A stretch of DNA of 64,000 nt from positions 304,090 to 368,089 of the forward strand of contig CAVSUO010000008.1 in assembly GCA_963731255.1 (NCBI GenBank), given 5' to 3'. Under the pieces are notes generated by a model that saw only the letters and a list, made by a program, of their open reading frames with translations, was not told the DNA's origin and did no database searches. The first letter of the stretch is position 1; every line of letters starts with the position of its first letter. Origin of the DNA: an uncultured Actinomycetes bacterium. GTDB lineage: Bacteria; Actinomycetota; Acidimicrobiia; Acidimicrobiales; AC-9. Of the stretch, positions 17,657 through 61,825 are shown in pieces. Made by a program: the position numbers and the translations under genes.

Positions 17657-20600
17657 TCAGACGACCCGGCTCAGGCCGACACCGATCGAGCGAGACCGCC
17701 CGACGTCGTAGCGGGCCTCGTAGTCGAGGCCGGAGCGGTCCAGCGGGGCCAGCTCCAGGTCGTCGGCGAGGGTCTGTTCCATGAGGTATCGCCGATGGGA
17801 CCCCACGGCGTCACCCGCTTCCCGGTCGAGATCCAGCACCAGCCGGATGTGGTCGGAGACATGGAGGCCGGCGTCCCGGCGGGCCATCTGCACGGTGCGG
17901 ATCAGGTCGCGCGCCAGCCCCAGCCGGGCCAGCGCCGGTGTGACCTCGAGATCGAGGGTGACCACGCCGTCGTTCCGGGGCAGGCTCCGGCTGGAGACCT
18001 CGTCGCGGGGCTTGAGGCGCACGGCGAACTCGTTCGGCGCCAGGGTCACGCCCGCCGCCTCGACCTCGTCGTCCGAAACCCTGGACCAGTTGCCCTGGCG
18101 TGCCGCGGCCAGGACCTTCTGGGTGTCGGCGCCGAGGCGCGGCCCGACGACCGAGGGGTCGACGGCCAGGATGAGCTCGCCCGCCTCGTCCACGTCCTCG
18201 GTGAGATGGACGTCCTGGACGTTGACCTCGTCGGCGATCAGGCCCACGAAGGGCTCGAGCCGACGGGCGTCTCGAGCGGCCACGGTCAGGGACGCGAGCG
18301 GCAGCCGGGCCCGCCGGTCGTTGGCCTTGCGCACCGAGTGGGCGGCAGAGGCCACCTCGCGCACGAGGTCCATGTCGGCGACGAGTGCGGGATCAGCCGG
18401 CAGGGCGTCGCGCCCCGGCCAGTCGGTCAGATGGACGCTGCGCTCGCCCGTGAGGCCGCGGTACACAGCCTCGGTGACCAGTGGGAGCAGCGGCGCGGCC
18501 ACCTGGCACAGCACCCGGAGCACGGTGGCCAGCGTGTCGTAGGCAGTCCCGCTTGTCGCCGTCGGTCTCCGGGTCGTCGCCCACGGGCTTCCAGAACCTG
18601 TCTCGGCTTCGGCGGATGTACCAGTTGGTGAGGGCGTCGAGGAAGCCGCCGATGGCGGCACACGCTCCCGGCAGGTCGTCGGCGTCCATCCTGGTCGTCA
18701 CCTGGTCGACCAGGGCCGAGGTCTTGGCCAGCACGTAGCGGTCGAGCACGCCCGTGGCGTCGGTCCGCCAGCGCCCCCGGATCCGGTCTGTGTTGGCGTA
18801 GAGGGTGAGGAAGTACCAGGCGTTCCAGATGGGATTGATGACCTGGCGCACGGCGTCGGAGAACCCCTTGTGGTCCACCATCTGGTCCTGTCCCCGCAGG
18901 ACGGCCGACGAGAGCAGGAACCAACGCATGGCGTCGGCCCCGTAGGTGGCGAAGACCTCGTTGGCCTCGGGGTAGTTGCCCAGCCGCTTCGACATCTTGC
19001 GTCCGTCGTGGCCCTGCAGGATCCCGTGGGCGATACAGCTCGTGAAGGCGGGGCAGTCGAACAGCGCCGTCGACAGCACGTGGAGCGTGTAGAACCAGCC
19101 CCTCGTCTGGCTCACGTACTCGACGATGAAGTCGGCCGGGAAATGGGACTCGAAGCGCTCGCGGTTCTCCATCGGATAGTGGAGCTGGGCGTAGGGCATC
19201 GATCCGGACTCGAACCAGCAGTCGAGGACGTCGTCGACCCGGCGCATCGTCGAGGCGCCGGTGGGGTCGTCGGGGTTGGGACGGGTGAGGGCGTCGACAG
19301 CGGGGCGATGGAGATCGGTCGGCCGTACCCCGAAGTCACGCTCGAGCTCGTCGAGGGTGCCGTACACGTCGATTCGCGGATAGCGGGGGTCGTCGCTCTT
19401 CCACACCGGGATGGGCGCGCCCCAGAAGCGGTTGCGGCTGATCGACCAGTCCCTGGCTCCTTCCAGCCACTTGCCGAAGGCCCCGTCGCGCACGTGGGCC
19501 GGCGTCCAGCGGATGCGCTGGTTGAGCTCGACCATCCGGTCGCGGAAGGCCGTCACCTGCACGAACCACGAGCTCACGGCCCGGTAGATCAGAGGCGTGT
19601 CCGTTCTCCAGCAGTGCGGGTAGCTGTGGACGTAGCTCTCCCGGGCGAGCAACGCGTCCGAGGCGGCGAGGTCCTCGATGATCGCCTCGTTGGCGTCGAG
19701 CACCTGCAAGCCGGCATAGGGGGGGACCTCGTTGGTGAACCGGCCCCGGTCGTCCACGGGAGCGACCACGGGGATGCCGTTGGCCTCACCGAGGCGCTGG
19801 TCGTCCTCGCCGAAGCCGGGCGCGGTGTGGACGATGCCGGTGCCCTCCTCGGTCGACACGAAGTCTCCGGCGAGGACGCGGAAGGCCCCCGGCGTGTCGG
19901 CGAAGAAGTCGAACAGGGGACGATAGGTCCGGCCCACCAGGTCGCTGCCCTTGAGCGTTGCGACCCGCACTGCGTCCCCCAGGACGTCCTCGTAGGCCTC
20001 GGCTCTCGCCTCGCCCACGACGTAGCGCTTCCCGTCGCGATCGAGGACGACGTAGTCGATGTCCGGCCCCACCGCCAGGGCGAGGTTGGACGGAAGTGTC
20101 CACGGCGTCGTCGTCCACACCAGGACCCGCAGCGGCTCGCCGTCGAGCTCGAAGGCCACCGTCACGGCGGGGTCCTCCCGGGGGCGGTAGGCGTCGTCCT
20201 GTCGGGTCTCGAAGTTCGACAGGGGCGTCTCGCACTCCCAGCAGTAGGGGAGGACGCGGTAGCCCTCGTAGATCAGCCCCTTGTCCCACAACCGGCGAAA
20301 GGCCCACAGGACGCTCTCCATGTACGAGAGATCCATCGTCTTGTAGTCGTTGCCGAAATCGACCCAGCGAGCCTGTCGGGTGACGTACCGCTCCCACTCG
20401 TCGGCGGTGCGCAGGACCAGGGAGCGGCAGTGGTCGTTGAACCGCTCGATCCCCATCGCCGTGACGCCGGCGCGACCGGACACGCCCAGCTCCTTCTCGG
20501 CCACCATCTCGGCGGGCAGCCCGTGGCAGTCCCAGCCGAAGCGCCGTTCGACCCGGCGCCCCCGCATGGTCCGGTACCGGGGGACGGCGTCCTTGACGAA

Positions 20601-20813
20601 GCCGGTCAGCAGGTGGCCGTAGTGGGGGAGACCGTTGGCGAACGGTGGACCGTCGTAGAACACGTACTCGTTGGGACCGGCTTCTCTCGCCCCCACCGAC
20701 GCCGCGAACGTGCCGTCGGCCGCCCAGAAGTCCAGGATCTGCTCCTCGAGCGCCGGAAGCTCGGGCTGCTGCTCGACCTGGGGATACGGCATCGGTGCGG
20801 GCTCGCCGGCCAT
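17657..20813 (-). pseudogene. ileS: Isoleucyl-tRNA synthetase (type 2), one frameshift at about 18540
   Basis: ORF 18393..20813 carries [14 protein letters not shown] (HIGH) and [10 protein letters not shown] (KMSKS). The C-terminal domain continues in ORF 17657..18661. Total length is 3157 nt, which is 3n+1. Confidence 0.9.
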
Positions 20814-43220: not shown

Positions 43221-46200
43221 GTGCCGCCACTGCTCGAGGCGGAAGTCACCGACCTCGCTCGGCGCATCGCCGAGCTCGGCTCGGGTGAGCGGGCTCGGGT
43301 CTACCGGCTGTCGTGGTGGAGCGAGCGGATGCTGGCCTGGGCCATGGCCAACCCGTCGTTCAAGACCCAGCTGTTCCGTCTGGTCGACGTGTTCCCCGCC
43401 ACGACCGGAGATGCGGACGCCCTCCGTCATCTCCACGAGTACTTCGCCGGCGCCGATGCACCGCGGCTGCTCGACCTGGGCGTGGGTGTGGCCGAGCATC
43501 TGCCCCGCGGAGAGCGGCTGTCGGCGGCCGTGGCCCGCCGCAACATCGCTCGCATGGCCCAGCAGTTCATCGTCGGGACGACGCCCGCCGAGGTGGCGGA
43601 TCGGCTCGGGCGTCTGTGGCGCGCCGGCACGGCCTCCACCGTCGATCTGTTGGGTGAGAAGACGCTCACCGGAGCCGAAGCGGACCGGTATGCGGCGCGC
43701 GTGGACGAGGTGCTTCGCGTGCTGCTGGACGCCAGCACCGGCTGGGCACCCGACGACCACCTGGAACGCGACGACGTGGGACCGCTGCCACGCGTCAGCG
43801 TCAGCATCAAACCGTCCGCCCTGGCACCGCGGTTCGGGCCCCTCACCGGGACCGAAGCGATCGCCCAGGCCGCCGACCGCTTGCGCCCCCTGCTCAAGCT
43901 CGCCGTCGACCGGGGTGCGTTCGTCTGGCTGGACACCGAGGACTACGACAGCAAGGAGCTGGCCTTCGAGCTGTTCCGGACCATGCTCAACGAGCCGGAC
44001 CTGGCCCGCCTGGATGCGGGCGTGGTCGTGCAGGCCTACCTCAAGGACGCCGCCGCCGACCTGACCGACTTCGTCACCTGGTCCGCCGGGCGGATGGCGA
44101 CGGTCGCCGGCGCCCGGCCGATCGGGGTGCGTCTGGTGAAGGGGGCCTACTGGGACGCCGAGACCGTGCGGGCCGGAGCCGAGGGGTGGTCGGTCCCGGT
44201 GTTCGAGGACAAGGCCCAGACCGACGCCAACTACGAGCGTTGCGCACGGCTGCTGCACGATCACCACGGCAAGGTCAGGGCCGCCTTCGGCTCGCACAAT
44301 CTCCGCTCGCTCGCGTACTCCATCGCCTACGCCCGCAGCCTCGGCATCCCCGACACCGGCTACGAGCTCCAGATGCTGTACGGGATGGCCGAGCCGGTGC
44401 ACGCCGCCATCGGGCGACTCGGACTGCGGCTGCGGGTGTACGCCCCGATGGGCGAGCTGGTGCCGGGCATGTCCTACCTCGTGCGGCGGTTGCTGGAGAA
44501 CACGTCCAACGAGAGCTTCGTGCGTCGTCAGTTCGCGCAGCGACGAGGCCTCGATGATCTGCTGGCTCCACCGCGGGCGGGCGACCTTCCTGGACCGACC
44601 CTCCCGGCCAGTCGTCCCGCCACCGACCCCGACGAGCCAGGTCGCTACCACCACGAGCCTGTGGCCGAGTGGCGGCGCGCCGGCGTCCGCGCTGCCTTCG
44701 CCGCTGCTGTGGAGCACAGGCAGACCACCGTCGGAGAACGAGGTCGGGGTCTCGACGTGCCGGCGGTGATCGGTGGGGAGAAGGTGCACACGACCGCGAC
44801 CATCGCCTCCGTCGACCCGGCCGAGCCCGACTGCGTGGTTGCGAACTCGGCATCGTGCGGCCCCGAAGAGGCCGATCGTGCCGTCGAGGTCGCGGAGCGG
44901 GCACTGGAGCGATGGGCGAGGACGCCGGCACGTGAGCGGGCGGCGGTCCTCTTCCGTTTGGCCGAATGGATGCGGGCCCGCCGTACCGACCTGGCCACCC
45001 TCGAGATCTTCGAGGCGGGAAAGCCGTGGGCCGAGGCCGACGCCGACGTGTGCGAGGCCATCGACTTCTGCGAGTACTACGGCAGGGAGATGCTCCGCCT
45101 GGATCAGGGGGGCGCCGTCGAGTCACCGCCGGGGGAGACCAACCGGCTCACCTACCGGCCGAGGGGCGTGGGCGTGGTGATAGCACCCTGGAACTTTCCC
45201 CTGGCCATCCCCACCGGCATGGTGACGGGGGCGTTGGTGGCTGGCAACCCGGTGATCCTCAAGCCGGCCGAGCAGGCACCGGCGGTGGCTTCGATGCTGA
45301 TCGAAGGCCTGGCCGCGGCGGGTCTGCCGCCGGGGGTGGTGGGTTTCCTGCCCGGGCTCGGCGAGCTGGTCGGGGCGCACCTCGTGTCCCATCCCGGCGT
45401 GAGCTTCGTCGTCTTCACCGGCTCGAAGGCCGTGGGGCTGGCGGTGAACGCCAGCGCAGCCCAGCACCGCCCGGGCCAACGTCAGCTCAAGAGGGTCGTC
45501 GCCGAGATGGGCGGCAAGAACGCCATCGTCATCGACGCCGGACGCCGATCTCGACCAGGCCGTCCCTGCCGTCGTGCAGTCGGCGTTCTCCTATGCCGGA
45601 CAGAAGTGCTCCGCCGCCTCGCGCCTGATCGTGCTCGAGCCCGTCTTCGACGAGTTGGTGAGGCGGGTCCGAGGCGCCGCCCTCGAGCTGTCGATCGGCC
45701 ACCCGCGGCACATGGCCACCGAGGTCGGGCCCCTCATCGACGCAGACGCGCAGTCGCGGGTGCGAGCCTGCTCGGAGGCGGCCCATACCCAAGGAAGAGT
45801 CGTGCTGCACCGCGACGACGTGCCCGAGACGGGCTACTTCGCCGGGCCCCTGGTGGTGGCCGACGTTGCGCCGGACGCAGCACTGGCGAGGGAGGAGATC
45901 TTCGGTCCCGTGCTGGCCGTGCAGCGCGCCGCGTCCTTCGCCGATGCGGTCGAGTTGGCCAACCACACCGACTACGCGCTGACTGCGGGTCTCTTCTCGC
46001 GTTCTCCGGCCCACATCGCGCTGGCCTCGAACGAGCTGCGGGCCGGCAACGTGTACGTCAACCGGGGGATCACGGGCGCGGTGGTCGGGCGCCAGCCCTT
46101 CGGGGGCTACGGCTTGTCGGGAGTGGGCTCGAAGTCGGGCGGCCCGGACTACTTGTTGCAGTTCCTGGACCCCGTTGTCAGCAGCGAGAACACGCTGCGC

Positions 46201-46236
46201 CGGGGCTTCGCGCCAGCCGGCTCCGAGGAGGCATGA
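43221..46236 (+). pseudogene. putA: Bifunctional proline dehydrogenase / L-glutamate-gamma-semialdehyde dehydrogenase (PutA-like), one inserted G at about 45540
   Basis: PRODH part: VRLVKGAYWD, LQMLYGM, YLVRRLLENTSNESF. ALDH part: APWNFPLAI, FTGS, EMGGKNA, then the frame switches to ORF 45574..46236 (YAGQKCSA, EIFGPV). Confidence 0.85.
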
Positions 46237-51779: not shown

Positions 51780-53675
51780 GTGATCCAGCATCACTCCAAC
51801 CCACCGAAGCCCGGCCCGCCGACGGACCCGCCGAAGCGCCCGGTGCCACCACCGCCTCCTCGCTGGCGGATCTGGTTCCTCGTGGTCGGCATCGTCGCCA
51901 CCGTCGGCCTGCTCTTCATACCGGCCATGGGCAGCGCCCCACCGGTCTCCAACCTCAACTATTCGACCTTCGTCGACAAGGTCAACGCCAACCAGGTGTC
52001 CACGGCCACCATCGACCCCAACGGCAAGGTCACCGGCCAGTTGAAGGGGAATGCCGGCCAGCACTACAGCTCCCAGATACCGCTGGCTCTCGGCAACAAC
52101 CAGCTGGCGCCCACCCTCCAGGCCCACGGCGTGGCCATCACGGGTGTGGGCCCAAGCAGCTCGGTGCTGCCCACGATCCTGTCCTTCCTGCCGTTCGTCC
52201 TCTTCCTCGGCCTGTTCCTGCTCCTGGGTCGGCGCTCGGCCCGGGCGGCGGGCGGGATCATGGGGATCGGCAGCTCCCGCGCCAAGCTCTACGACGAGGA
52301 GCGACCTCCGACCAGGTTCGCCGACGTGGCCGGCTACGAAGGGGTCAAGCAGGAGGTGAGCGAGGTCGTCGACTTCCTCACCCACCCCGACCGCTACTCC
52401 CGCGCCGGCGCCATCGGACCCAGGGGGGTGCTCATGGTCGGGCCCCCCGGTACGGGCAAGACGCTCCTGGCCCGGGCGGTGGCGGGGGAGGCCGAGGTGC
52501 CGTTCTTCGCCATCACCGGCTCGAGCTTTGTCGAGCTGTTCGTGGGCGTGGGGGCGTCCCGGGTCCGGGACCTGTTCGCCACCGCTCGCAAGCGGGCGCC
52601 ATCGATCATCTTCATCGACGAGATCGACGCCATCGGCGGCAAGCGTGGAGCCGCGCTGTTCGCGTCCAACGACGAGCGGGAGCAGACCCTGAACCAGCTC
52701 CTCGCCGAGATGGACGGGTTCGACCCGGCCACCGGGGTGGTCGTCATGGCCGCCACCAACCGCCCCGAGACCCTCGATCCCGCCCTGCTGCGCCCCGGCC
52801 GCTTCGACCGGACGGTCGAGATCCCCCTGCCCAACCGGGCCGAGCGGGCCAAGATCCTGGCCGTGCACACCAAGGGGCGGAGGCTGGCGCCCGATGTCGA
52901 CCTCGGCGTCGTGGCCGGGCTGACACCCGGGTTCTCCGGTGCGGACCTCGCCAATCTGGTCAACGAGGCCGCCATCGTGGCCGTGCGGGCCGACCGGGAG
53001 GTGATCGCCGCCGCCGACTTCTCCGAGGCCCGCGATCGAATCCTGCTCGGCCGCCGCGACGCGTCCAACGCCCTGCTCCCCGACGAGAAGCGCTCGGTCG
53101 CGGTGCACGAGGGTGGGCACGCCCTGGTGGCCGTGTTGTCCCCCCATGCCGACCCCGTCGCCAAGGTCACGATCCTTCCGTCGGGCATGGCCCTCGGGGT
53201 CACCGAGCAGCTCCCGGTCGACGAGCGCCACCTCTATCCCGAGAGCTACCTGCTCGATTCGCTGGCCGTCCGCCTCGGTGGCCGGGCTGGCGAGCTGCTC
53301 GTGCTGGGCGAGGCCTCGAGTGGGGCGAGCAACGACCTCGCCGGCGCCACCGAGCTGGCGACCCGGATGATCCGCGACTTCGGCATGAGCGATCGGCTGG
53401 GGCCCGTCGGCTTCTCCTCGCCGGCTCCCAACTACCTCGGCCCCGACGGTCGAGGCCGGCCGTACGCAGAGGGCACCCAACAGCTGATCGACGAGGAGGT
53501 GGCCCGGCTACTGCGCCAGGCCGAGCAGCGGGCGACCCGGCTGCTGACCGAGCACCGCTCTGCGCTCGACCGGGTGGTCGACCTGCTCCTCGAACGAGAG
53601 ACGATCGACGGGCGCGACGTCGAGGCCGCCGTCGCCACACCGGGACGTCAGCCAGCTCGAGCCGGCACCGGCTGA
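51780..53675 (+). CDS. ftsH: ATP-dependent zinc metalloprotease FtsH
   Basis: N-terminal TM helices, [11 protein letters not shown] (Walker A), IIFIDEID (Walker B) and HEGGHA (zinc site). Confidence 0.95.
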
Positions 53676-53965
53676 CGAGCCGTATCGGCGGGCGCCGAGC
53701 CGGCTCCGTCGTCATCGGCACCGCGGTCGTCGCGAACGTCGTCGTCCGCGACAGCATCGTCTGCCAGCTCGTCGTCGGGCTCATCCTCGGGCTCGCTGCT
53801 GAGGTCGGTCCACCCCGCCCCCGGCTCCGCGCTCCACTGGACCCGGCGGTGTTTCGGGCCGCCGCTCACGGTGAGCCGACCGCACGAGCACGTCCGCACG
53901 TCCCAGGGATGGCTGGAGTCAATGATGTCCCCGCAGACGTCGCAGCGGGCCCGCGACCCGGTCAC
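53648..53965 (-). CDS. Small zinc-ribbon-like protein with an acidic tail, translationally coupled to clpP
   Basis: CDVCG...CSCG cysteine pairs, then an Asp/Glu-rich C-terminus. GTG 53965 overlaps the clpP stop (GTGA). The 3' end overlaps the convergent ftsH by 28 nt. Confidence 0.5.
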   Translation of the reverse strand: MTGSRARCDVCGDIIDSSHPWDVRTCSCGRLTVSGGPKHRRVQWSAEPGAGWTDLSSEPEDEPDDELADDAVADDDVRDDRGADDDGAGSAPADTARQPVPARAG

Positions 53966-54591
53966 GACGCCGCGGCCGCTGCCAGCGCGGCCACGCCCCG
54001 CCGGGGGGCGATGATGTCGTCGACGATGCCGTAGGCCAGAGCTTCCTCCGCCGTCATGTAGAAGTCGCGGTCGATGTCGCGTTCGACCCGCTCGATCGGC
54101 TGATGGGTGTGGTGGGCGAGGATCTGGGCCATGCGCCTGGTGGTCGCCAGCGCCTCCTGGAGCTGTATCTCCATGTCGCGTGGCGCTCCACGGGCCCCGC
54201 CCGATCCCTGGTGGATCATGACCTTGGAGCTCGGTAGGGCCGAGCGCTTGCCGGCGGCGCCGCCGGCGAGGATCATGGCCGCCGCCGACATGCCCATGCC
54301 GACGCAGATGGTGGCCACGTCGCAGTGGACGTGCTGCATCACGTCGTAGATGGCCATCCCCGCGTACGCGAGGCCGCCGGGCGAGTTGATGTACAGGTAG
54401 ATGTCCTTGTCGGGGTTCTCGGCGTCGAGGTAGAGGATCTCGGCGATCAGGAGGTTGGCGATCTGGTCGTCGACCTCCTGACCGAGGAAGACGATCCGTT
54501 CGCGCAGAAGGAGCGAGTAGATGTCGAATGCCCGCTCGCCGCGCGGCCCGCTGTCGAGCACCGTGGGGATGAGGGAGTGATAGGACGCCAT
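53962..54591 (-). CDS. clpP: ClpP family serine protease subunit (triad positions retained)
   Basis: YINSPGG, GMGMSAAAMIL (Ser aligned with the ClpP nucleophile), MIHQ (His) and ERDIDRDFY (Asp). ATG 54591 is preferred; the ORF track start is 54648. Confidence 0.8.
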   Translation of the reverse strand: MASYHSLIPTVLDSGPRGERAFDIYSLLLRERIVFLGQEVDDQIANLLIAEILYLDAENPDKDIYLYINSPGGLAYAGMAIYDVMQHVHCDVATICVGMGMSAAAMILAGGAAGKRSALPSSKVMIHQGSGGARGAPRDMEIQLQEALATTRRMAQILAHHTHQPIERVERDIDRDFYMTAEEALAYGIVDDIIAPRRGVAALAAAAAS

Positions 54592-54716
54592 GGCCACCTC
54601 GCTTCCGTCGTGTTCCAGCGCCTGACCGCCGGCGTCTATACCATACATGCGATATTACCAACGAGTTATCATCGTTGACATGAGCGGACCTCGTCCGGAC
54701 GTGTCGCAGTGCCCCG

Positions 54717-55055
54717 GTGGCCGGTTCTCGACAGATGGGTGAGCGCAGGCACGATCGCTACCTGCCCGGCTTCGGCGACGTGGCCCGGCGCCGACAGGCG
54801 CTGGCCGAGGCCCTGGTGGCCCGGCGCGTGGCGGTCGGCCTCTCCCAGACCGAGGTTGCGGCCCGCATGGGAACGTCGCAGTCGGCCGTCGCCCGCCTCG
54901 AGTCGGGCCAGGGCGACGTGCGCCTCTCGAGCCTCGAGCGCTATGCCGCCGCCGTCGACCAGGTCATCGACTGGCGACTGGGTGGGCCTGAGGACGCGGA
55001 AGCCGGGCCGGCGACCGGGCTGGCTCCTCCCGCCCGCGGGGACGACGTCGGATGA
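54717..55055 (+). CDS. XRE family helix-turn-helix regulator
   Basis: LSQTEVAARMGTSQSAVARLESGQ. The stop overlaps the ATG of the next gene (ATGA). The alternative start is ATG 54735. Confidence 0.8.
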   Translation: MAGSRQMGERRHDRYLPGFGDVARRRQALAEALVARRVAVGLSQTEVAARMGTSQSAVARLESGQGDVRLSSLERYAAAVDQVIDWRLGGPEDAEAGPATGLAPPARGDDVG

Positions 55056-55603
55056 CCGGGATCTTTCCGTCCGGGGACCCCCGGCTGTCGGCCGAGCGGG
55101 CGTTGCTCGACCGGAGGATCATCCTGCTCAGCGGCAGGATCGACCATCAGCGGGCGAGCGACGCGGCGGCCACGATGATGACCCTGGACGCCCTCGGCGA
55201 CGATCCGGTCGAGCTGCGGCTGAATGCCGAGTCCGACTCGCTCGACGTCGCCTTCGCCCTCATCGACACCATCGACGTGCTCGGCGTGCACGTCACCGCG
55301 ACGGTCGCCAGCACGGTGGGCGGGACCATGGCGGGTGTGCTCGCCGTCTGCAGTCACCGTCGGATCGGAGCCCTCGGCCGGATCCACCTCCGCGAGCCGA
55401 CCGCCGACTTCTCGGGTCCGGCGACCGATCTGCAGCGGCGGGCCACCGCTCTGGAGGCCCGCGTGCTGCTGTACGTCCGCCGCCTGGCGGAGGCGACCCG
55501 CCAGCCCTTCGAGCACGTCGAGGCGGACCTGCGCCTCGGGCGGCACCTCTCGGCCGAGACCGCCCTCGGCTACGGCATCGTCGACGAGATCGTCGGACCG
55601 TAG
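55052..55603 (+). CDS. Divergent ClpP-like protein (ClpR-like; oxyanion and Asp positions appear substituted)
   Basis: By manual alignment to ClpP, YINSPGG corresponds to RLNAESDS, the Ser and His positions are plausibly kept (VASTVGG, RIHLREP), and the catalytic Asp position reads Gly (DLRLGRHLS). GYGIVDEIV is the typical ClpP C-terminal motif. Confidence 0.65.
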   Translation: MTGIFPSGDPRLSAERALLDRRIILLSGRIDHQRASDAAATMMTLDALGDDPVELRLNAESDSLDVAFALIDTIDVLGVHVTATVASTVGGTMAGVLAVCSHRRIGALGRIHLREPTADFSGPATDLQRRATALEARVLLYVRRLAEATRQPFEHVEADLRLGRHLSAETALGYGIVDEIVGP

Positions 55604-55643: not shown

Positions 55644-55865
55644 CTAGTCCCGGGGGCGCAGGTCGATGCGCAGCGTGAGGATGCCGTCCTCCAGCTTCCC
55701 CTCGGCGTCGCCGAGCATGGCGAAGTCCATGAAGTCACGCTGGGCCTGTTCGGCGAAGCGCCGACGCTCGGGGCCCTCGACGGGCGGGAGGCCCCGATTT
55801 CGCACCGCCACGGCCCGCTGCCGGAAACGCTCTATCATGGCTTGAACATCAAGCTCTTCGGGCAT
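55644..55865 (-). CDS. Small hypothetical protein (73 aa)
   Basis: Read from ATG 55865 (MPEELDVQAMIERF...). The longer ORF track start at 55958 is less likely. Confidence 0.4.
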   Translation of the reverse strand: MPEELDVQAMIERFRQRAVAVRNRGLPPVEGPERRRFAEQAQRDFMDFAMLGDAEGKLEDGILTLRIDLRPRD

Positions 55866-55971
55866 CGCGGCAGACCCTAGCCAGTTTCGTGGGCGGTTCC
55901 GTAGGAGCTTGGTCGCGGCGACGGCGGGGTACACTGTCGCCACAGCACCTGTCGACACCTGGGAGCGGCTC

Positions 55972-60635: not shown

Positions 60636-61825
60636 GTGGTTCTGTCTGTGGCGGTCAGACGCCACCGTCTCATCGTTCTGCTCGGGCTCGTTCTCGCTCT
60701 CCTGTCGGCCGGTCCTGCCGGGGCTCGGTCGGCGGTCGCCGCCGTGCCCCCGCCTGCGCCCGCCGCCGCCCGGCACGCCCCCTCCGGGTACGCCGGGACT
60801 GCCTCCTCCTGCAGGTCCGGCGGCGTGGGTCGTCGTGGACGCCGACACCGGTAACGTCATCAACGCCGCCAACGATCACATCGGGATGCGGCCGGCCAGC
60901 ATCAGCAAGGTGTTGACGGCCATCGTCGCCGTTCAGCACCTGCCCTCGAACAGCGTGGTCCCCGTCAGCCCCGTCGCCCAGGGCACCGAGTCGGTCAATC
61001 TGGGTCTCAAGGTGGGGCAGGTGTGGGCGTTCACCGACATCCTCCACGCCATGCTCATGCTGTCGGCCAACGACGCGGCGCACGGCGCTGGCCGAGCGGG
61101 TGAGCGGCACCCGCGAGGCGTTCGGGGCCGAGATGCAGCGCACGGGCGCCGACCTTCACCTGGTCGACCATCCGGTCCTCCGTGACCCCGCTGGGCTCGA
61201 CGACCAGTTCTCCGTCCAGGGAGGAAACGTCATCTCCGCCTACGACCTGGCCATCATCGCCCGGACGGCGTTGGCGATCCCCGATATCCGCCAGATCGTC
61301 GATCTGCCGGAGTACCGGTTCACGGCACCCGACGGGGTGGTCCACGTGATCCGCAACGTCGACCGTGGGCTGGAGCTGTACCCAGGAGCCATCGGCATCA
61401 AGACCGGCTACACCAAGGCGGCCGGGAACACCTTCATGGCGGCGGCGACGCGTGACGGGCGCACGATGGTGGCGGTCGTCCTCCAGTCTCCCGACATCTA
61501 CCGCTCGGCGACTGCGCTCCTCGACCTAGGTTTCGCCACGCCGGTCACCAGGGAGTCGCGGGTCGACCACCTGCCTGCCATCTCGACGCAGGTCCCTGCG
61601 CCGACGGCCACCACCACGCCCAGCTCGGGGACACGCAACGCCCCGGCGGTCTCGCCGCCGCTCGGCCGCACGGCGCGGGACTCCTCGACGGCTGGTTCCG
61701 CGACGTCGTCGTGGCCGTGGCCGCCGTCCTGTTGGTGCTCGCCGCCGTCGTCGTGGCCCTCCGAAGGCGCGGTCGTGCGCCGGCGGCGGAGCCGCTACGG
61801 GTCGTTGGCGACTCGGCGCCACTAA
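60636..61825 (+). pseudogene. D-alanyl-D-alanine carboxypeptidase (peptidase S11, PBP5-like), frame-disrupted
   Basis: Signal peptide (ORF 60636), SxxK ASISK and SxN SAND (ORF 60835), KTG IKTGYT (ORF 61100), and a C-terminal TM anchor in yet another frame (ORF 61711). Confidence 0.75.

What the first reader, a model, noticed from the sequence alone, without database searches (positions are those of the whole stretch)
53648..55603. Accessory Clp locus: ClpP + coupled zinc-ribbon gene, divergent from XRE regulator + degenerate ClpP-like gene
On the minus strand sits a ClpP paralogue with Ser/His/Asp positions intact. It is followed by a GTGA-coupled 105-aa CxxC...CxC protein with a poly-acidic tail. 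Across a locally AT-rich 125-nt spacer, the plus strand carries an XRE HTH gene ATGA-coupled to a 183-aa ClpP-like protein. By manual alignment to ClpP, the oxyanion-loop motif of that protein (YINSPGG reads RLNAESDS) and its catalytic Asp (reads Gly) appear lost, as in ClpR-type inactive subunits. This is not the canonical tig-clpP1-clpP2-clpX context. A regulator hard-wired to an inactive ClpP subunit, opposite an active one with a zinc-ribbon partner, suggests a self-contained regulated hetero-oligomeric protease module or adaptor system. From memory only, Streptomyces has an analogous accessory clpP3-clpP4 operon controlled by a divergent regulator, PopR. I cannot verify any relationship.
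Basis: partly seen in the sequence, partly recalled or inferred. Interest (0 to 1): 0.6.

Follow-up and report, generated by a model that had tools for sequence, protein, structure and literature searches.

The report
ClpP, dead ClpP twin, repressor module
An active ClpP protease gene sits back-to-back with a repressor gene fused in translation to a catalytically dead ClpP copy, a gene set conserved across the soil actinobacterial order Acidimicrobiales and apparently undescribed, so it may be a new way of controlling a major protein-degrading machine.

Summary

- **ClpP-A** (53962-54591, minus strand) is a canonical ClpP. It keeps the Ser/His/Asp triad, the N-terminal loop and the unfoldase-docking pocket.
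- **ClpP-like B** (55052-55603, plus strand) has a confident ClpP fold. It has lost all three triad residues, the oxyanion loop, the N-terminal loop and the docking-pocket tyrosines. The same losses hold across 104 family members. dN/dS of 0.17-0.37 shows purifying selection.
- **The XRE gene** is stop/start-overlapped with B in almost every locus examined.
- **Conservation.** The core (ClpP-A, divergent from XRE and B) recurs in about 24 other Acidimicrobiales loci. These include 3 of 3 loci picked by ClpP-A similarity alone. The zinc-ribbon gene (DUF7695) follows ClpP-A in at least 7 lineages.
- **Operator.** The spacer is the lowest-GC stretch of the window. In relatives it holds a near-perfect palindrome (ATGATATCTCA-N4-TGAGATATCAT) over -10-like boxes facing both ways.
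- **Regulator family.** The XRE protein is not ClgR/PopR-like in sequence or operator.
- **Docking-like motif.** In relatives, either B's tail or the zinc-ribbon tail ends in RR-[ILV]-G-[FY], which resembles the ClpX/ClpC docking tripeptide. The window's own copies lack it.

Whether these genomes also carry a canonical clpP1P2 locus could not be tested. Physical assembly of A with B is inferred, not shown.

The parts
53962..54591 (-). ClpP-A: canonical, catalytically competent ClpP (209 aa from ATG 54591). The public record calls a 228-aa form starting at 54648.
   Evidence: Pfam CLP_protease scores E=1.5e-73. NCBIfam PRK00277 scores 277 bits against a cut-off of 249. The alignment to Francisella ClpP (3p2l) shows Ser, His and Asp in register. 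In 60 of 60 A-family sequences the triad, the N-terminal loop residues P4/V6/R15 and pocket Tyr62 are conserved. dN/dS is 0.04-0.08.
53648..53965 (-). DUF7695 zinc-ribbon gene (105 aa). Its GTG start overlaps the ClpP-A stop (GTGA). It has an N-terminal CxxC...CxC ribbon (about 56 aa) and an acidic tail. Its 3' end overlaps the convergent ftsH gene.
   Evidence: Pfam PF24749 scores E=1.7e-12. The N-domain is 52-93% identical in relatives and lies directly downstream of ClpP-A in at least 7 lineages. N-domain dN/dS is 0.15-0.33. The AF2 model has pLDDT 80 and is an all-beta ribbon with no PDB fold match. The tail differs from L010/L049 by a 15-nt deletion and a 1-nt indel near 53707/53708.
54634..54685 (.). 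AT-rich control region between the divergent genes. It contains the conserved block GCGATATTACCAACGAGTTATCAT (54649-54672), with -10-like boxes TATCAT on the + strand and TAATAT on the - strand.
   Evidence: This is the lowest-GC 50-nt stretch in the 64 kb. The block occurs once in the window against 0.01 expected. It is conserved in L010-L013. More distant loci carry a near-perfect palindrome, ATGATATCTCA-N4-TGAGATATCAT, at the same position. GATATC-N10-GATATC occurs in 6 loci, once each. All five where both flanking genes are held (L009, L021, L023, L042, L043) have it inside this intergenic region; in the truncated locus L026 it lies just upstream of the XRE gene.
54735..55055 (+). XRE-family HTH regulator (106 aa from ATG 54735; an alternative GTG start lies at 54717). 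It has a conserved N-terminal RRHDRYLPGF segment. Its stop overlaps the start of B (ATGA).
   Evidence: Pfam HTH_3 scores E=3.2e-10. The 106-aa form is the one in the public collection. The best PDB relative is the phage 434 repressor at E=3.3e-7. The protein is 50-95% identical in 30 loci. ATGA/GTGA overlap with B is seen in nearly all of them.
55052..55603 (+). ClpP-like B: a 183-aa pseudo-protease with a ClpP fold. The triad, oxyanion loop, N-terminal axial loop, hydrophobic docking pocket and ring-ring sensor pair are all replaced.
   Evidence: Pfam CLP_protease scores E=3.6e-18, but the protein is far below every NCBIfam cut-off. The AF2 model has pLDDT 92.3. Foldseek's top hit is T. thermophilus ClpP with TM 0.90 and rmsd 1.0 A. 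Across 104 family members, S97 is Gly in 103, H122 is Arg/Cys/Thr/Ala/Val, D171 is Gly in 94, Y60 is Glu in 92 and Y62 is Arg in 95. dN/dS is 0.17-0.37.
51780..53675 (+). FtsH-family AAA+ metalloprotease (631 aa), convergent with and overlapping the zinc-ribbon gene. It is a neighbour only and not part of the conserved module.
   Evidence: NCBIfam TIGR01241 scores 687 bits against a cut-off of 600. The gene is adjacent only in the closest relatives: L001/L013, L010, L011, L049, L050 and L057.

Best explanation
This is a conserved chromosomal ClpP control module of Acidimicrobiales.

**Shown**
- ClpP-A is an active-type ClpP.
- B is a ClpP-fold pseudoenzyme kept under purifying selection.
- The XRE gene is translationally coupled to B.
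- The divergent spacer carries a conserved inverted repeat.

**Inferred**
- The XRE protein is a 434-repressor-like dimer. It binds the inverted repeat, which covers -10-like boxes facing both ways. It therefore represses clpP-A and its own XRE-B operon together.
- B is a non-catalytic partner. Because it has lost every site that a ClpP uses for catalysis, gating and unfoldase docking, it cannot be a second protease. It most likely binds ClpP-A (as a ring or subunit partner), the XRE protein, or both. This would link the amount or state of ClpP-A to XRE activity, in the way a partner switch works.
- The DUF7695 zinc-ribbon protein is made in step with ClpP-A. It is an optional ClpP-A-binding accessory.
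- In relatives its acidic linker ends in RR-[ILV]-G-[FY]. In lineages without the ribbon gene the same kind of motif sits on B's own C-terminal tail. I read it as a peptide that docks in the hydrophobic pockets of ClpP-A, as the (L/I/V)-G-(F/L) loops of ClpX and ClpC do.
- In the window's own clade this motif is degenerate (RLGA in L010) or absent.
For: **Gene identities and loss of sites in B.**

**Fold of B.**

**Selection.** dN/dS is 0.17-0.37 for B, against 0.04-0.08 for ClpP-A.

**Linkage**
- A scan anchored on B found 36 loci. Twenty distinct Acidimicrobiales loci among them have ClpP-A divergent from XRE-B.
- Three of three loci picked only by ClpP-A similarity have the HTH plus a roughly 180-aa CLP_protease pair.
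- A scan anchored on the zinc ribbon found ClpP-A immediately upstream in 6 of 8 loci with enough flank.

**Coupling.** ATGA/GTGA overlaps of XRE with B are seen in nearly all of 30 loci.

**Operator**
- The palindrome and its position are shown.
- The conserved block is unique in the window.
- It lies in the lowest-GC stretch of the window.
- In Pseudonocardiaceae a similar GAGATAyC element sits just upstream of the XRE start codon.

**Motif**
- B tails of the form [ILMVF]GF[RQA]P occur in 11 of 16 modules without the ribbon gene and in 0 of 7 with it. Fisher p is 0.0046, not corrected for phylogeny.
- [LIVMF]G[FY] occurs in 16 of 116 DUF7695 tails, against 2.6 expected from shuffling. It is nearly always preceded by R or P and lies at the extreme C-terminus.
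- The tripeptide definition and its pocket docking are taken from PMC8745299.

**Genomic setting.** The module lies in core chromosome. There are no phage or defence hits.
Against: - No physical interaction was modelled or measured.
- B is co-transcribed with the regulator, not with ClpP-A. Known hetero-ClpP pairs (clpP1P2, clpP3P4, clpR-clpP3) are co-transcribed with each other (my knowledge).
- B has also lost the ring-ring sensor residues, so canonical stacking on ClpP-A is not assured.
- XRE-B pairs exist without a neighbouring ClpP-A in Pseudonocardiaceae. Orphan B paralogues also exist.
- Five module lineages have neither a ribbon gene nor a GF tail.
- The window's own B and ribbon proteins lack the motif.
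- The operator in the window's clade is only weakly symmetric. The generic promoter scan found nothing there.
- The direction of regulation (repression or activation) is inferred only from overlap with -10-like boxes.
Confidence: 0.45

Rival explanations
1. B is a co-regulator or ligand sensor for the XRE protein and does not assemble with ClpP-A. The remodelled, conserved charged surface and former active-site cleft (E60/R62/R112, NAESDS, VGGT) would bind a peptide or small signal, or the conserved N-terminal RRxxx[FL]PGF segment of XRE. This would modulate DNA binding. ClpP-A would be simply one regulated target.
For: - The XRE-B pair is the minimal conserved unit. It occurs without a neighbouring ClpP-A in 10 loci, including the cultured Pseudonocardia sp. 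H11422.
- Translational coupling is near-universal.
- The replaced residues are themselves highly conserved within the family.
- An operator-like element lies directly upstream of the XRE gene in those loci.
Against: - In Acidimicrobiales, ClpP-A and XRE-B are linked in every locus checked. This includes 3 of 3 chosen blind to B.
- The complementary placement of the GF tail on B or on the ClpP-A-coupled ribbon protein points to ClpP-A as a physical target.
Confidence: 0.2
2. A and B together are the organism's main (possibly only) ClpP core. This would be an essential ClpP/ClpR-type heterocomplex like cyanobacterial ClpP3/ClpR, rather than an accessory system. XRE would be its homeostatic regulator.
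For: - ClpP-A is extremely conserved. It is 70-97% identical across the order, and its dN/dS of 0.04-0.08 is lower than that of the neighbouring genes.
- It has a classical N-terminus and docking pocket.
- The module lies in core chromosome beside dcw, dnaE and aminoacyl-tRNA synthetase genes.
- No other clpP gene is in the 64-kb window.
Against: - This was not testable here, because no whole genome could be scanned.
- Actinomycetota generally carry tig-clpP1-clpP2-clpX (my knowledge).
- B lacks the ring-ring sensor and is not co-transcribed with ClpP-A.
Confidence: 0.15
3. XRE-B is a type II toxin-antitoxin-like pair. XRE would be the antitoxin and autorepressor. The dead ClpP copy would be a toxin that poisons ClpP complexes or their partners.
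For: - The layout is a two-gene operon with the antitoxin first, overlapping stop/start codons and a palindromic operator at its own promoter.
- The XRE protein has weak similarity to HigA/HipB-type antitoxins.
- The pair occurs alone in varied metabolic contexts in Pseudonocardiaceae.
Against: - There are no hits in PADLOC for B. No relatives were found in IMG/VR.
- Inheritance looks vertical, with divergence tracking that of ClpP-A and conserved synteny in near relatives.
- No mobile-element genes flank the module in the window.
- The XRE protein is more conserved than B (76-85% against 52-54% identity in L018, L019 and L021). That is unusual for antitoxins.
Confidence: 0.1
4. B is a decaying duplicate of clpP with no function.
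For: Every recognisable functional site of ClpP has been lost.
Against: - The reading frame is intact in more than 100 sequence clusters.
- dN/dS is 0.17-0.37.
- The fold prediction is confident.
- The substituted residues are strongly conserved.
- Translational coupling is conserved.
Confidence: 0.02

Closest known systems
ClpR subunits of cyanobacterial and plastid Clp cores (ClpP3/ClpR mixed rings)
   Same: Both are ClpP-fold paralogues that lack the catalytic triad and are kept by selection alongside an active ClpP.
   Different: - B is not co-transcribed with the active ClpP but with a transcription factor.
- B has additionally lost the N-terminal loop, the docking-pocket tyrosines and the ring-ring sensor.
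- Its closest solved relatives are ordinary bacterial ClpPs, so it looks like an independent origin within Actinomycetota.
- Assembly with ClpP-A is untested.
Streptomyces PopR/clpP3-clpP4 and ClgR/clpP1-clpP2 circuits
   Same: An XRE-type HTH regulator is dedicated to a clpP locus. That PopR is divergent from its clpP operon is my recollection. The regulatory roles are documented in PMC9765437.
   Different: - The XRE protein here resembles the 434 repressor and HigA, not ClgR.
- Its operator (GATATCTCA..TGAGATATC) is unrelated to the ClgR box WNNWMGCYNNNRGCGWWS.
- It has no C-terminal Ala-Ala.
- It probably acts as a repressor, whereas ClgR and PopR are activators.
- ClpP3 and ClpP4 are, to my knowledge, both triad-bearing and co-transcribed.
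Asymmetric ClpP1P2 heterotetradecamers (Mycobacterium, Streptomyces, Listeria, Pseudomonas, Chlamydia)
   Same: Two ClpP paralogues divide the labour. In Streptomyces one ring supplies catalysis and the other supplies unfoldase docking (PMC9765437).
   Different: In those systems both partners keep the fold's functional sites, or all but one. B keeps none of them. It cannot be the docking ring either, because its pocket is charged.
IGF/LGF docking loops of ClpX/ClpA/ClpC and their ADEP mimics
   Same: The tails of B and of the ribbon protein in relatives carry [ILV]-G-[FY]. This matches the (L/I/V)-G-(F/L) tripeptide that inserts into ClpP hydrophobic pockets (PMC8745299).
   Different: - Here the motif lies at a C-terminal tail of non-ATPase proteins and is flanked by Arg.
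- Tyr often replaces Phe or Leu.
- Binding to ClpP-A is a prediction only.
- The motif is absent from the window's own proteins.
Type II toxin-antitoxin and ImmR/ImmA-type pairs (an XRE regulator coupled to a second protein)
   Same: An XRE regulator is translationally coupled to a partner protein, with a palindromic operator at its own promoter.
   Different: The partner is a ClpP pseudoenzyme, not a known toxin or metalloprotease. The distribution is chromosomal and looks vertical, with no phage or defence signal.

Membership tests
ClpP (Pfam PF00574 / MEROPS S14): ClpP-A | Full-length match to the ClpP profile above the curated threshold | tested here: met
   Pfam scores 247 bits against a cut-off of 20.2. 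NCBIfam PRK00277 scores 277 bits against 249. The protein is below the TIGR00493 equivalog cut-off (263 against 308.6).
ClpP (Pfam PF00574 / MEROPS S14): ClpP-A | Ser-His-Asp triad and NSPGG oxyanion loop in register | tested here: met
   Shown in the alignment to 3p2l. S97, H122 and D171 are conserved in 60 of 60 A-family sequences.
ClpP (Pfam PF00574 / MEROPS S14): ClpP-A | N-terminal axial loop and hydrophobic pocket for unfoldase docking | tested here: met
   P4, V6, R12, E14, R15, L23, L48, Y62, I90 and L114 are conserved. The differences are F82 to His and, in the window, F112 to Ser. The list of pocket residues comes from my knowledge of E. coli ClpP.
Active ClpP: ClpP-like B | Catalytic triad | tested here: not met
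   Ser is Gly in 103 of 104 sequences. His is Arg, Cys, Thr, Ala or Val. Asp is Gly in 94 of 104. The same holds in the Pseudonocardiaceae copies.
ClpR-type inactive Clp core subunit: ClpP-like B | ClpP fold without catalytic residues, maintained by selection | tested here: met
   The model has pLDDT 92 and TM 0.90 to ClpP. dN/dS is 0.17-0.37.
ClpR-type inactive Clp core subunit: ClpP-like B | Assembles into a ring or barrel with an active ClpP | not testable with these tools
   Only single-chain prediction was available. The ring-ring sensor residues (equivalents of D170/R171) are replaced.
ClpR-type inactive Clp core subunit: ClpP-like B | Orthology with cyanobacterial or plastid ClpR | not tested
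   No ClpR sequence was compared directly. The top 60 PDB sequence hits are all ordinary ClpP chains. The family is confined to Acidimicrobiales, Pseudonocardiaceae and a few other MAGs.
ClgR/PopR clp-gene regulators: XRE protein | Sequence similarity to ClgR | tested here: not met
   In the PDB search at E<=1 the best hit is the 434 repressor at 3.3e-7. No chain named ClgR is listed. A C. glutamicum ClgR structure is reported in PMC2905415. That it is deposited in this PDB copy is my recollection, not something I checked.
ClgR/PopR clp-gene regulators: XRE protein | ClgR operator WNNWMGCYNNNRGCGWWS upstream of the clp genes | tested here: not met
   There are 0 matches in the window. The conserved element is instead GATATCTCA..TGAGATATC.
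ClgR/PopR clp-gene regulators: XRE protein | C-terminal Ala-Ala degron, with turnover by ClpP | tested here: not met
   The C-termini are variable and none ends in AA. Turnover itself is not testable. The degron rule comes from my knowledge.
Type II toxin-antitoxin pair: XRE + B | Antitoxin-first bicistron with overlapping ORFs and an autoregulatory palindrome | tested here: met
Type II toxin-antitoxin pair: XRE + B | Match to known toxin or defence families; patchy or mobile distribution | tested here: not met
   PADLOC gives no hit for B. The IMG/VR scan found none. Synteny in near relatives is conserved and the setting is core chromosome.
Type II toxin-antitoxin pair: XRE + B | Growth arrest by the second gene, relieved by the first | not testable with these tools
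   This needs an experiment.
DUF7695 (PF24749): zinc-ribbon protein | Profile match above threshold with four Cys ligands | tested here: met
   The score is 47.4 bits against a cut-off of 25. C8, C11, C26 and C28 are invariant in 23 sequences. The family has 322 clusters at E<=1e-3.
Clp-ATPase-type ClpP-docking tripeptide (L/I/V)-G-(F/L) | Motif present in the window's B or zinc-ribbon protein | tested here: not met
   Window B ends ...IVDEIVGP. The window ribbon protein ends ...PVPARAG. The nearest relatives L010 and L049 end ...SRLGARR.
Clp-ATPase-type ClpP-docking tripeptide (L/I/V)-G-(F/L) | Motif present and enriched in relatives' tails | tested here: met
   Eleven B tails and several ribbon tails carry it. 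It occurs in 16 of 116 DUF7695 tails against 2.6 expected.
Clp-ATPase-type ClpP-docking tripeptide (L/I/V)-G-(F/L) | Binds the ClpP hydrophobic pocket | not testable with these tools
   This needs multimer modelling or biochemistry.

The most novel reading that the evidence does not exclude
B is a ClpP mimic that reports on ClpP-A to the repressor it is co-translated with. A heptameric pseudo-ClpP ring would present seven RR-IGF-type tails. In other lineages the DUF7695 zinc-ribbon protein would supply the same tail in trans. These tails would dock symmetrically (7:7) into the unfoldase pockets of ClpP-A. This would cap or activate ClpP-A in competition with ClpX/ClpC. Partner-switching with the XRE repressor would then tie pocket occupancy to clpP-A transcription. 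If so, this would be the first protein-encoded, non-ATPase ligand of the ClpP docking pocket (a natural analogue of ADEP). It would also be a new logic for protease homeostasis.
Probability: 0.15. Interest if true: 0.85.

Novelty: new variant of a known kind. Interest (0 to 1): 0.62.

Why it matters
ClpP is a central protease and an antibiotic target. How cells set its level and decide who may dock on it is known for only a few lineages.

- This module would add a family of more than 100 dead ClpP paralogues hard-wired to a repressor.
- It would give a first functional context to a domain of unknown function (DUF7695).
- It makes a concrete prediction: short RR-[ILV]-G-[FY] tails on non-ATPase proteins occupy the same pocket as ClpX/ClpC loops and ADEP antibiotics.

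All parts are small soluble proteins that can be expressed in the laboratory. One cultured Pseudonocardia isolate carries the XRE-B pair.

If the genomes lack clpP1P2, the module would also show that a whole actinobacterial order runs on a ClpP/pseudo-ClpP core.

Tried and rejected
- **Locus scans with broad alignments.** The narrower alignments A3 and A5 worked.
- **Word-index search for the zinc ribbon.** It found only 2 proteins. The exhaustive search was needed.
- **Promoter and repeat tools.** The generic sigma-70/terminator scan and the inverted-repeat tool found nothing useful in the window's spacer. The operator became visible only by comparing loci. My first pattern search had the wrong spacing and gave 0 hits; it was corrected.
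- **Zinc-ribbon fold.** The model has no significant PDB match, so no link to the ClpX zinc-binding domain could be made.
- **Defence, phage and RNA readings.**
  - PADLOC gave only generic HTH hits.
  - PHROGs gave only generic ClpP-like and HTH hits.
  - No B relatives are in IMG/VR.
  - There are no Rfam families and no tRNA genes in the window.
- **ClgR/PopR membership.** Rejected on sequence, operator and C-terminus.
- **Window genome record.** The look-up for the window's B protein returned nothing. The paper by Bellier and Mazodier (2004) is not held.
- **P0240 ending.** The apparent 'PLLGFA' ending of P0240 and similar ORFs is an artefact of reading antisense through ftsH. I discounted it.

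Full report
**1. What is in the window**

The window has 72% GC. Homologues place it in Acidimicrobiales, a lineage of Actinomycetota. Exact-sequence look-up ties it to a public NCBI contig of 848,283 bp.

The surrounding genes are core chromosome. They include a PBP, MurB, FtsZ, IleRS, a primary-type sigma factor, DnaE, TyrRS, RNase D and FtsH. There are no tRNA genes and no Rfam matches.

At the stated coordinates there are four genes:

- **ClpP-A** on the minus strand. Pfam CLP_protease scores E=1.5e-73.
- **A DUF7695 zinc-ribbon gene** (PF24749, E=1.7e-12). Its GTG start overlaps the ClpP-A stop codon (GTGA).
- **An XRE/HTH_3 gene** on the plus strand (E=3.2e-10).
- **A second CLP_protease-like gene, B** (E=3.6e-18). 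The XRE stop codon overlaps its start (ATGA).

The 125-nt spacer has a core at 54634-54685 with 38-40% GC. This is the lowest 50-nt stretch of the whole 64 kb.

The likely starts are ATG 54591 for ClpP-A and ATG 54735 for XRE. The first has a Shine-Dalgarno sequence, and homologues are 209-211 aa. The second is the form held in the public collection.

**2. The two ClpP-like proteins**

ClpP-A aligns end to end with solved ClpPs at E about 1e-68. Ser, His and Asp are in register. In 60 relatives the triad, the N-terminal loop and the key pocket residue Tyr62 are invariant.

B is different in kind.

- *Triad and oxyanion loop.* Against solved ClpPs and in a 104-member family alignment, Ser97 is Gly in 103 of 104. 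His122 is Arg, Cys, Thr, Ala or Val. Asp171 is Gly in 94. NSPGG reads NAESD.
- *N-terminal loop.* The first 15 or so residues that form the axial loop are missing.
- *Docking pocket.* Pocket residues Tyr60 and Tyr62 are Glu and Arg, and Phe112 and Leu114 are Arg and Gly.
- *Ring-ring contact.* The Asp/Arg ring-ring sensor pair is gone.

I took residue numbering and the list of pocket residues from my knowledge of E. coli ClpP.

Yet B folds confidently as a ClpP. The model has pLDDT 92.3 and TM 0.90, with rmsd 1.0 A to Thermus ClpP and the long handle helix in place. The substituted residues are themselves conserved. dN/dS among close relatives is 0.17-0.37, against 0.04-0.08 for ClpP-A.

B is thus a maintained pseudoenzyme. 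It is ClpR-like in principle but has lost far more than the triad.

**3. Conservation of the gene set**

*Anchored on B.* The family has 117 sequence clusters, essentially all from Acidimicrobiales or metagenomes. A scan of one genome per species returned 36 loci. tblastn with the window's proteins showed three arrangements:

- ClpP-A (60-97% identical) divergent from XRE-B, in 20 distinct Acidimicrobiales loci.
- XRE-B without a neighbouring ClpP-A, in 10 loci. Most are Pseudonocardiaceae, including the cultured Pseudonocardia sp. H11422. There the pair sits between glycerate kinase and fumarate reductase genes.
- An orphan B subgroup with an N-terminal extension.

*Anchored on ClpP-A.* More than 120 clusters are at least 74% identical to it. 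Three loci chosen only by that similarity all carry the divergent HTH plus a roughly 180-aa CLP_protease pair.

*Anchored on the zinc ribbon.* Six of 8 loci with enough flank have ClpP-A immediately upstream. Four of them show the complete four-gene unit.

The ribbon gene is present in at least 7 lineages: the window's clade, L022/L056, L047/L053, L051 and L046. FtsH adjacency is limited to the closest relatives.

None of about 30 loci shows tig or clpX next to ClpP-A.

Stop/start overlap of XRE with B (ATGA or GTGA) is nearly universal. The XRE protein is more conserved than B. It is 76-85% identical in the loci where B is 52-54% identical (L018, L019, L021).

**4. The control region**

Comparison of the spacers shows a near-perfect inverted repeat in most lineages. 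In L042 it reads CATGATATCTCAT-AG-ATGAGATATCATG.

GATATC-N10-GATATC occurs in six loci, once each. In the five where both flanking genes are held, it lies inside the ClpP-A/XRE spacer. In the truncated locus L026 it lies just upstream of the XRE gene.

Each half contains TATCAT, a -10-like TAnnnT box that reads outward on each strand. A bound dimer would therefore cover both divergent promoters. This step is inference.

In the window's clade the element is less symmetric: GCGATATTACCAACGAGTTATCAT at 54649-54672. It is conserved in L010-L013 and unique in the window.

Pseudonocardiaceae loci carry a related GAGATAyC element about 10-20 nt upstream of the XRE start codon. This is consistent with autoregulation.

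**5. What the regulator is not**

ClgR and PopR regulate clp genes in Streptomyces and are themselves ClpP substrates (PMC9765437).

The XRE protein here finds the phage 434 repressor (E=3.3e-7) and HigA-type antitoxins in the PDB. No ClgR chain is among the hits at E<=1. PMC2905415 reports a C. glutamicum ClgR structure; I did not verify that it is deposited in this PDB copy.

The published ClgR box WNNWMGCYNNNRGCGWWS (PMC2905415) is absent from the window. No orthologue ends in Ala-Ala.

The PopR analogy therefore holds only for gene layout.

**6. A recurrent tail motif**

In eleven modules without a ribbon gene, B carries an extra tail of about 20 residues. It ends in RRIGFRP, RSVGFRP, HPIGFRP, PPMGFRP or PGFGFR.

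In the seven lineages with a ribbon gene, B has no such tail. Fisher p is 0.0046. This is not corrected for shared ancestry, so it may reflect only one or two evolutionary events.

The ribbon proteins in turn end, after an acidic linker, in similar sequences:

| Locus | Ribbon tail ending |
|---|---|
| L046 | ...PQRRIGF |
| L022, L055, L056 | ...ERRLGYHLH |
| L047, L053 | ...GRVLGYGPP |
| L051 | ...RRRPGF |

Across 116 DUF7695 proteins with tails, 16 carry [LIVMF]G[FY], against 2.6 expected from shuffling. The motif is almost always preceded by Arg or Pro and lies at the extreme C-terminus.

This matches the (L/I/V)-G-(F/L) tripeptide by which Clp ATPases dock into ClpP pockets (PMC8745299). 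B's own pocket is destroyed and ClpP-A's is intact. The natural target would therefore be ClpP-A.

This is a prediction, not a result. It does not apply cleanly to the window itself:

- Window B ends ...IVGP.
- The window ribbon protein ends ...PVPARAG.
- The nearest relatives (L010, L049) end ...SRLGARR.
- They differ from the window by a 1-nt indel near 53707/53708.

The window also shows an apparently frameshifted ileS gene. An assembly error in the ribbon tail therefore cannot be excluded.

**7. Reading**

The best-supported account is a chromosomal ClpP control module. It has four elements:

- an active ClpP;
- a 434-like repressor acting on a shared operator;
- a co-translated ClpP pseudoenzyme that links the repressor to ClpP-A, or to a signal;
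- an optional zinc-ribbon accessory of ClpP-A.

What is shown is the gene identities, the loss of sites in B, selection on B, linkage, coupling and the conserved palindrome. What is inferred is DNA binding, the sign of regulation and all protein contacts.

The rivals are these:

- B works only with XRE as a sensor.
- A plus B is the main core of these organisms.
- XRE-B is a toxin-antitoxin-like pair.
- B is a relic. The data effectively exclude this.

There is no defence, phage or mobile-element signal.

**8. Novelty**

Full-text searches found nothing on DUF7695. No paper combined the terms ClpP, ClpR, 'catalytically inactive' and actinobacteria.

Inactive ClpP paralogues, hetero-ClpP cores and XRE-type clp regulators are all known kinds. 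This particular combination appears undescribed: a pseudo-ClpP coupled to the regulator, and docking-like tails on non-ATPase proteins. I rate it a new variant of a known kind.

The main gap is that I could not test whether a canonical clpP1P2/clpX locus coexists in these genomes.

Noticed in passing
window 54680-54742 (+): An ATG lies 7 nt downstream of the -10-like TATCAT box, which is the geometry of a leaderless transcript. It opens a 20-codon ORF (MSGPRPDVSQCPGGRFSTDG). The stop of this ORF overlaps the XRE start (ATGGGTGA). The same arrangement is present in L010, L011 and L012. In L013 the start is GTA. In L042 the equivalent ATG is in frame with the XRE gene.
   Followed up: partly
window 51780-53675 (+) and 53648-53965 (-): A full-length FtsH-family gene (631 aa) converges on the zinc-ribbon gene, and their 3' ends overlap by 28 nt. 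In relatives the antisense of the ftsH 3' end stays open. Gene callers therefore produce long false extensions of the ribbon protein, such as P0240 ending ...PLLGFA. I did not examine whether this FtsH is the housekeeping copy or a paralogue.
   Followed up: partly
window 17657-20813 (-): Isoleucyl-tRNA synthetase appears split into two overlapping ORFs in different frames. One is 806 aa with the catalytic domain. The other is 334 aa with the anticodon-binding domain. This points to a frameshift, most likely an assembly indel. The aldehyde dehydrogenase at 45574-46236 and the peptidase S11 at 61100-61825 also match only the C-terminal parts of their profiles. This matters for trusting the 1-nt indel in the zinc-ribbon tail.
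   Followed up: partly
window 53707/53708 and 53762/53763 (-): Relative to two independent relatives (L010, L049), the window's zinc-ribbon tail has a 15-nt in-frame deletion and a 1-nt deletion. The 1-nt deletion changes the last 20 or so residues, from ...DDGGSRLGARR* to ...[22 protein letters not shown].
   Followed up: yes
window 55644-55958 (-): A 104-aa ORF immediately downstream of B, on the opposite strand, is conserved at 86-94% identity in the closest relatives (L001, L010-L013). It has no Pfam, NCBIfam or PADLOC match.
   Followed up: partly
L018 and L020 (same 5.93-Mb contig CAWICN010000001.1, about 38 kb apart); L007, L008, L015, L017: B-family paralogues occur without XRE or ClpP-A. 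They have a conserved N-terminal extension (MADWRLVEGGEGPDPS...). One genome carries both a full module and such an orphan copy.
   Followed up: partly
L030-L033, L036, L038, L040 (Pseudonocardiaceae): The B proteins of these loci have a proline-rich N-terminal extension (W.P.PPPEPxPRRTPWQPDPRPPAPLP..PSQW) in place of the ClpP axial loop. Their XRE start codon lies about 7 nt downstream of a TAnnnT box, which suggests leaderless transcripts.
   Followed up: no
XRE orthologues in 30 loci (window 54744-54773): The regulator has a strongly conserved N-terminal segment ahead of the HTH: RRHDRYLPGF, RESVFPGF or RRTSFPGL. Its RR...[FL]PG[FL] pattern loosely resembles the RR-x-G-[FY] tail motif of B and the ribbon proteins. 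L051's ribbon protein has RRRPGF. The significance is unknown.
   Followed up: no
L019 (labelled Acidobacteriota), L034 (labelled Methylomirabilota): Module or pair loci with 54% and 36% identity to B carry non-actinobacterial MAG labels. These are short contigs from metagenome bins, so mis-binning is likely.
   Followed up: no
ClpP-A family, E. coli positions 82 and 112: Pocket residue Phe82 is His in 59 of 60 A-family sequences. Phe112 is Ser in the window's clade and Phe in most others. The docking pocket of this ClpP clade is therefore somewhat unusual.
   Followed up: no
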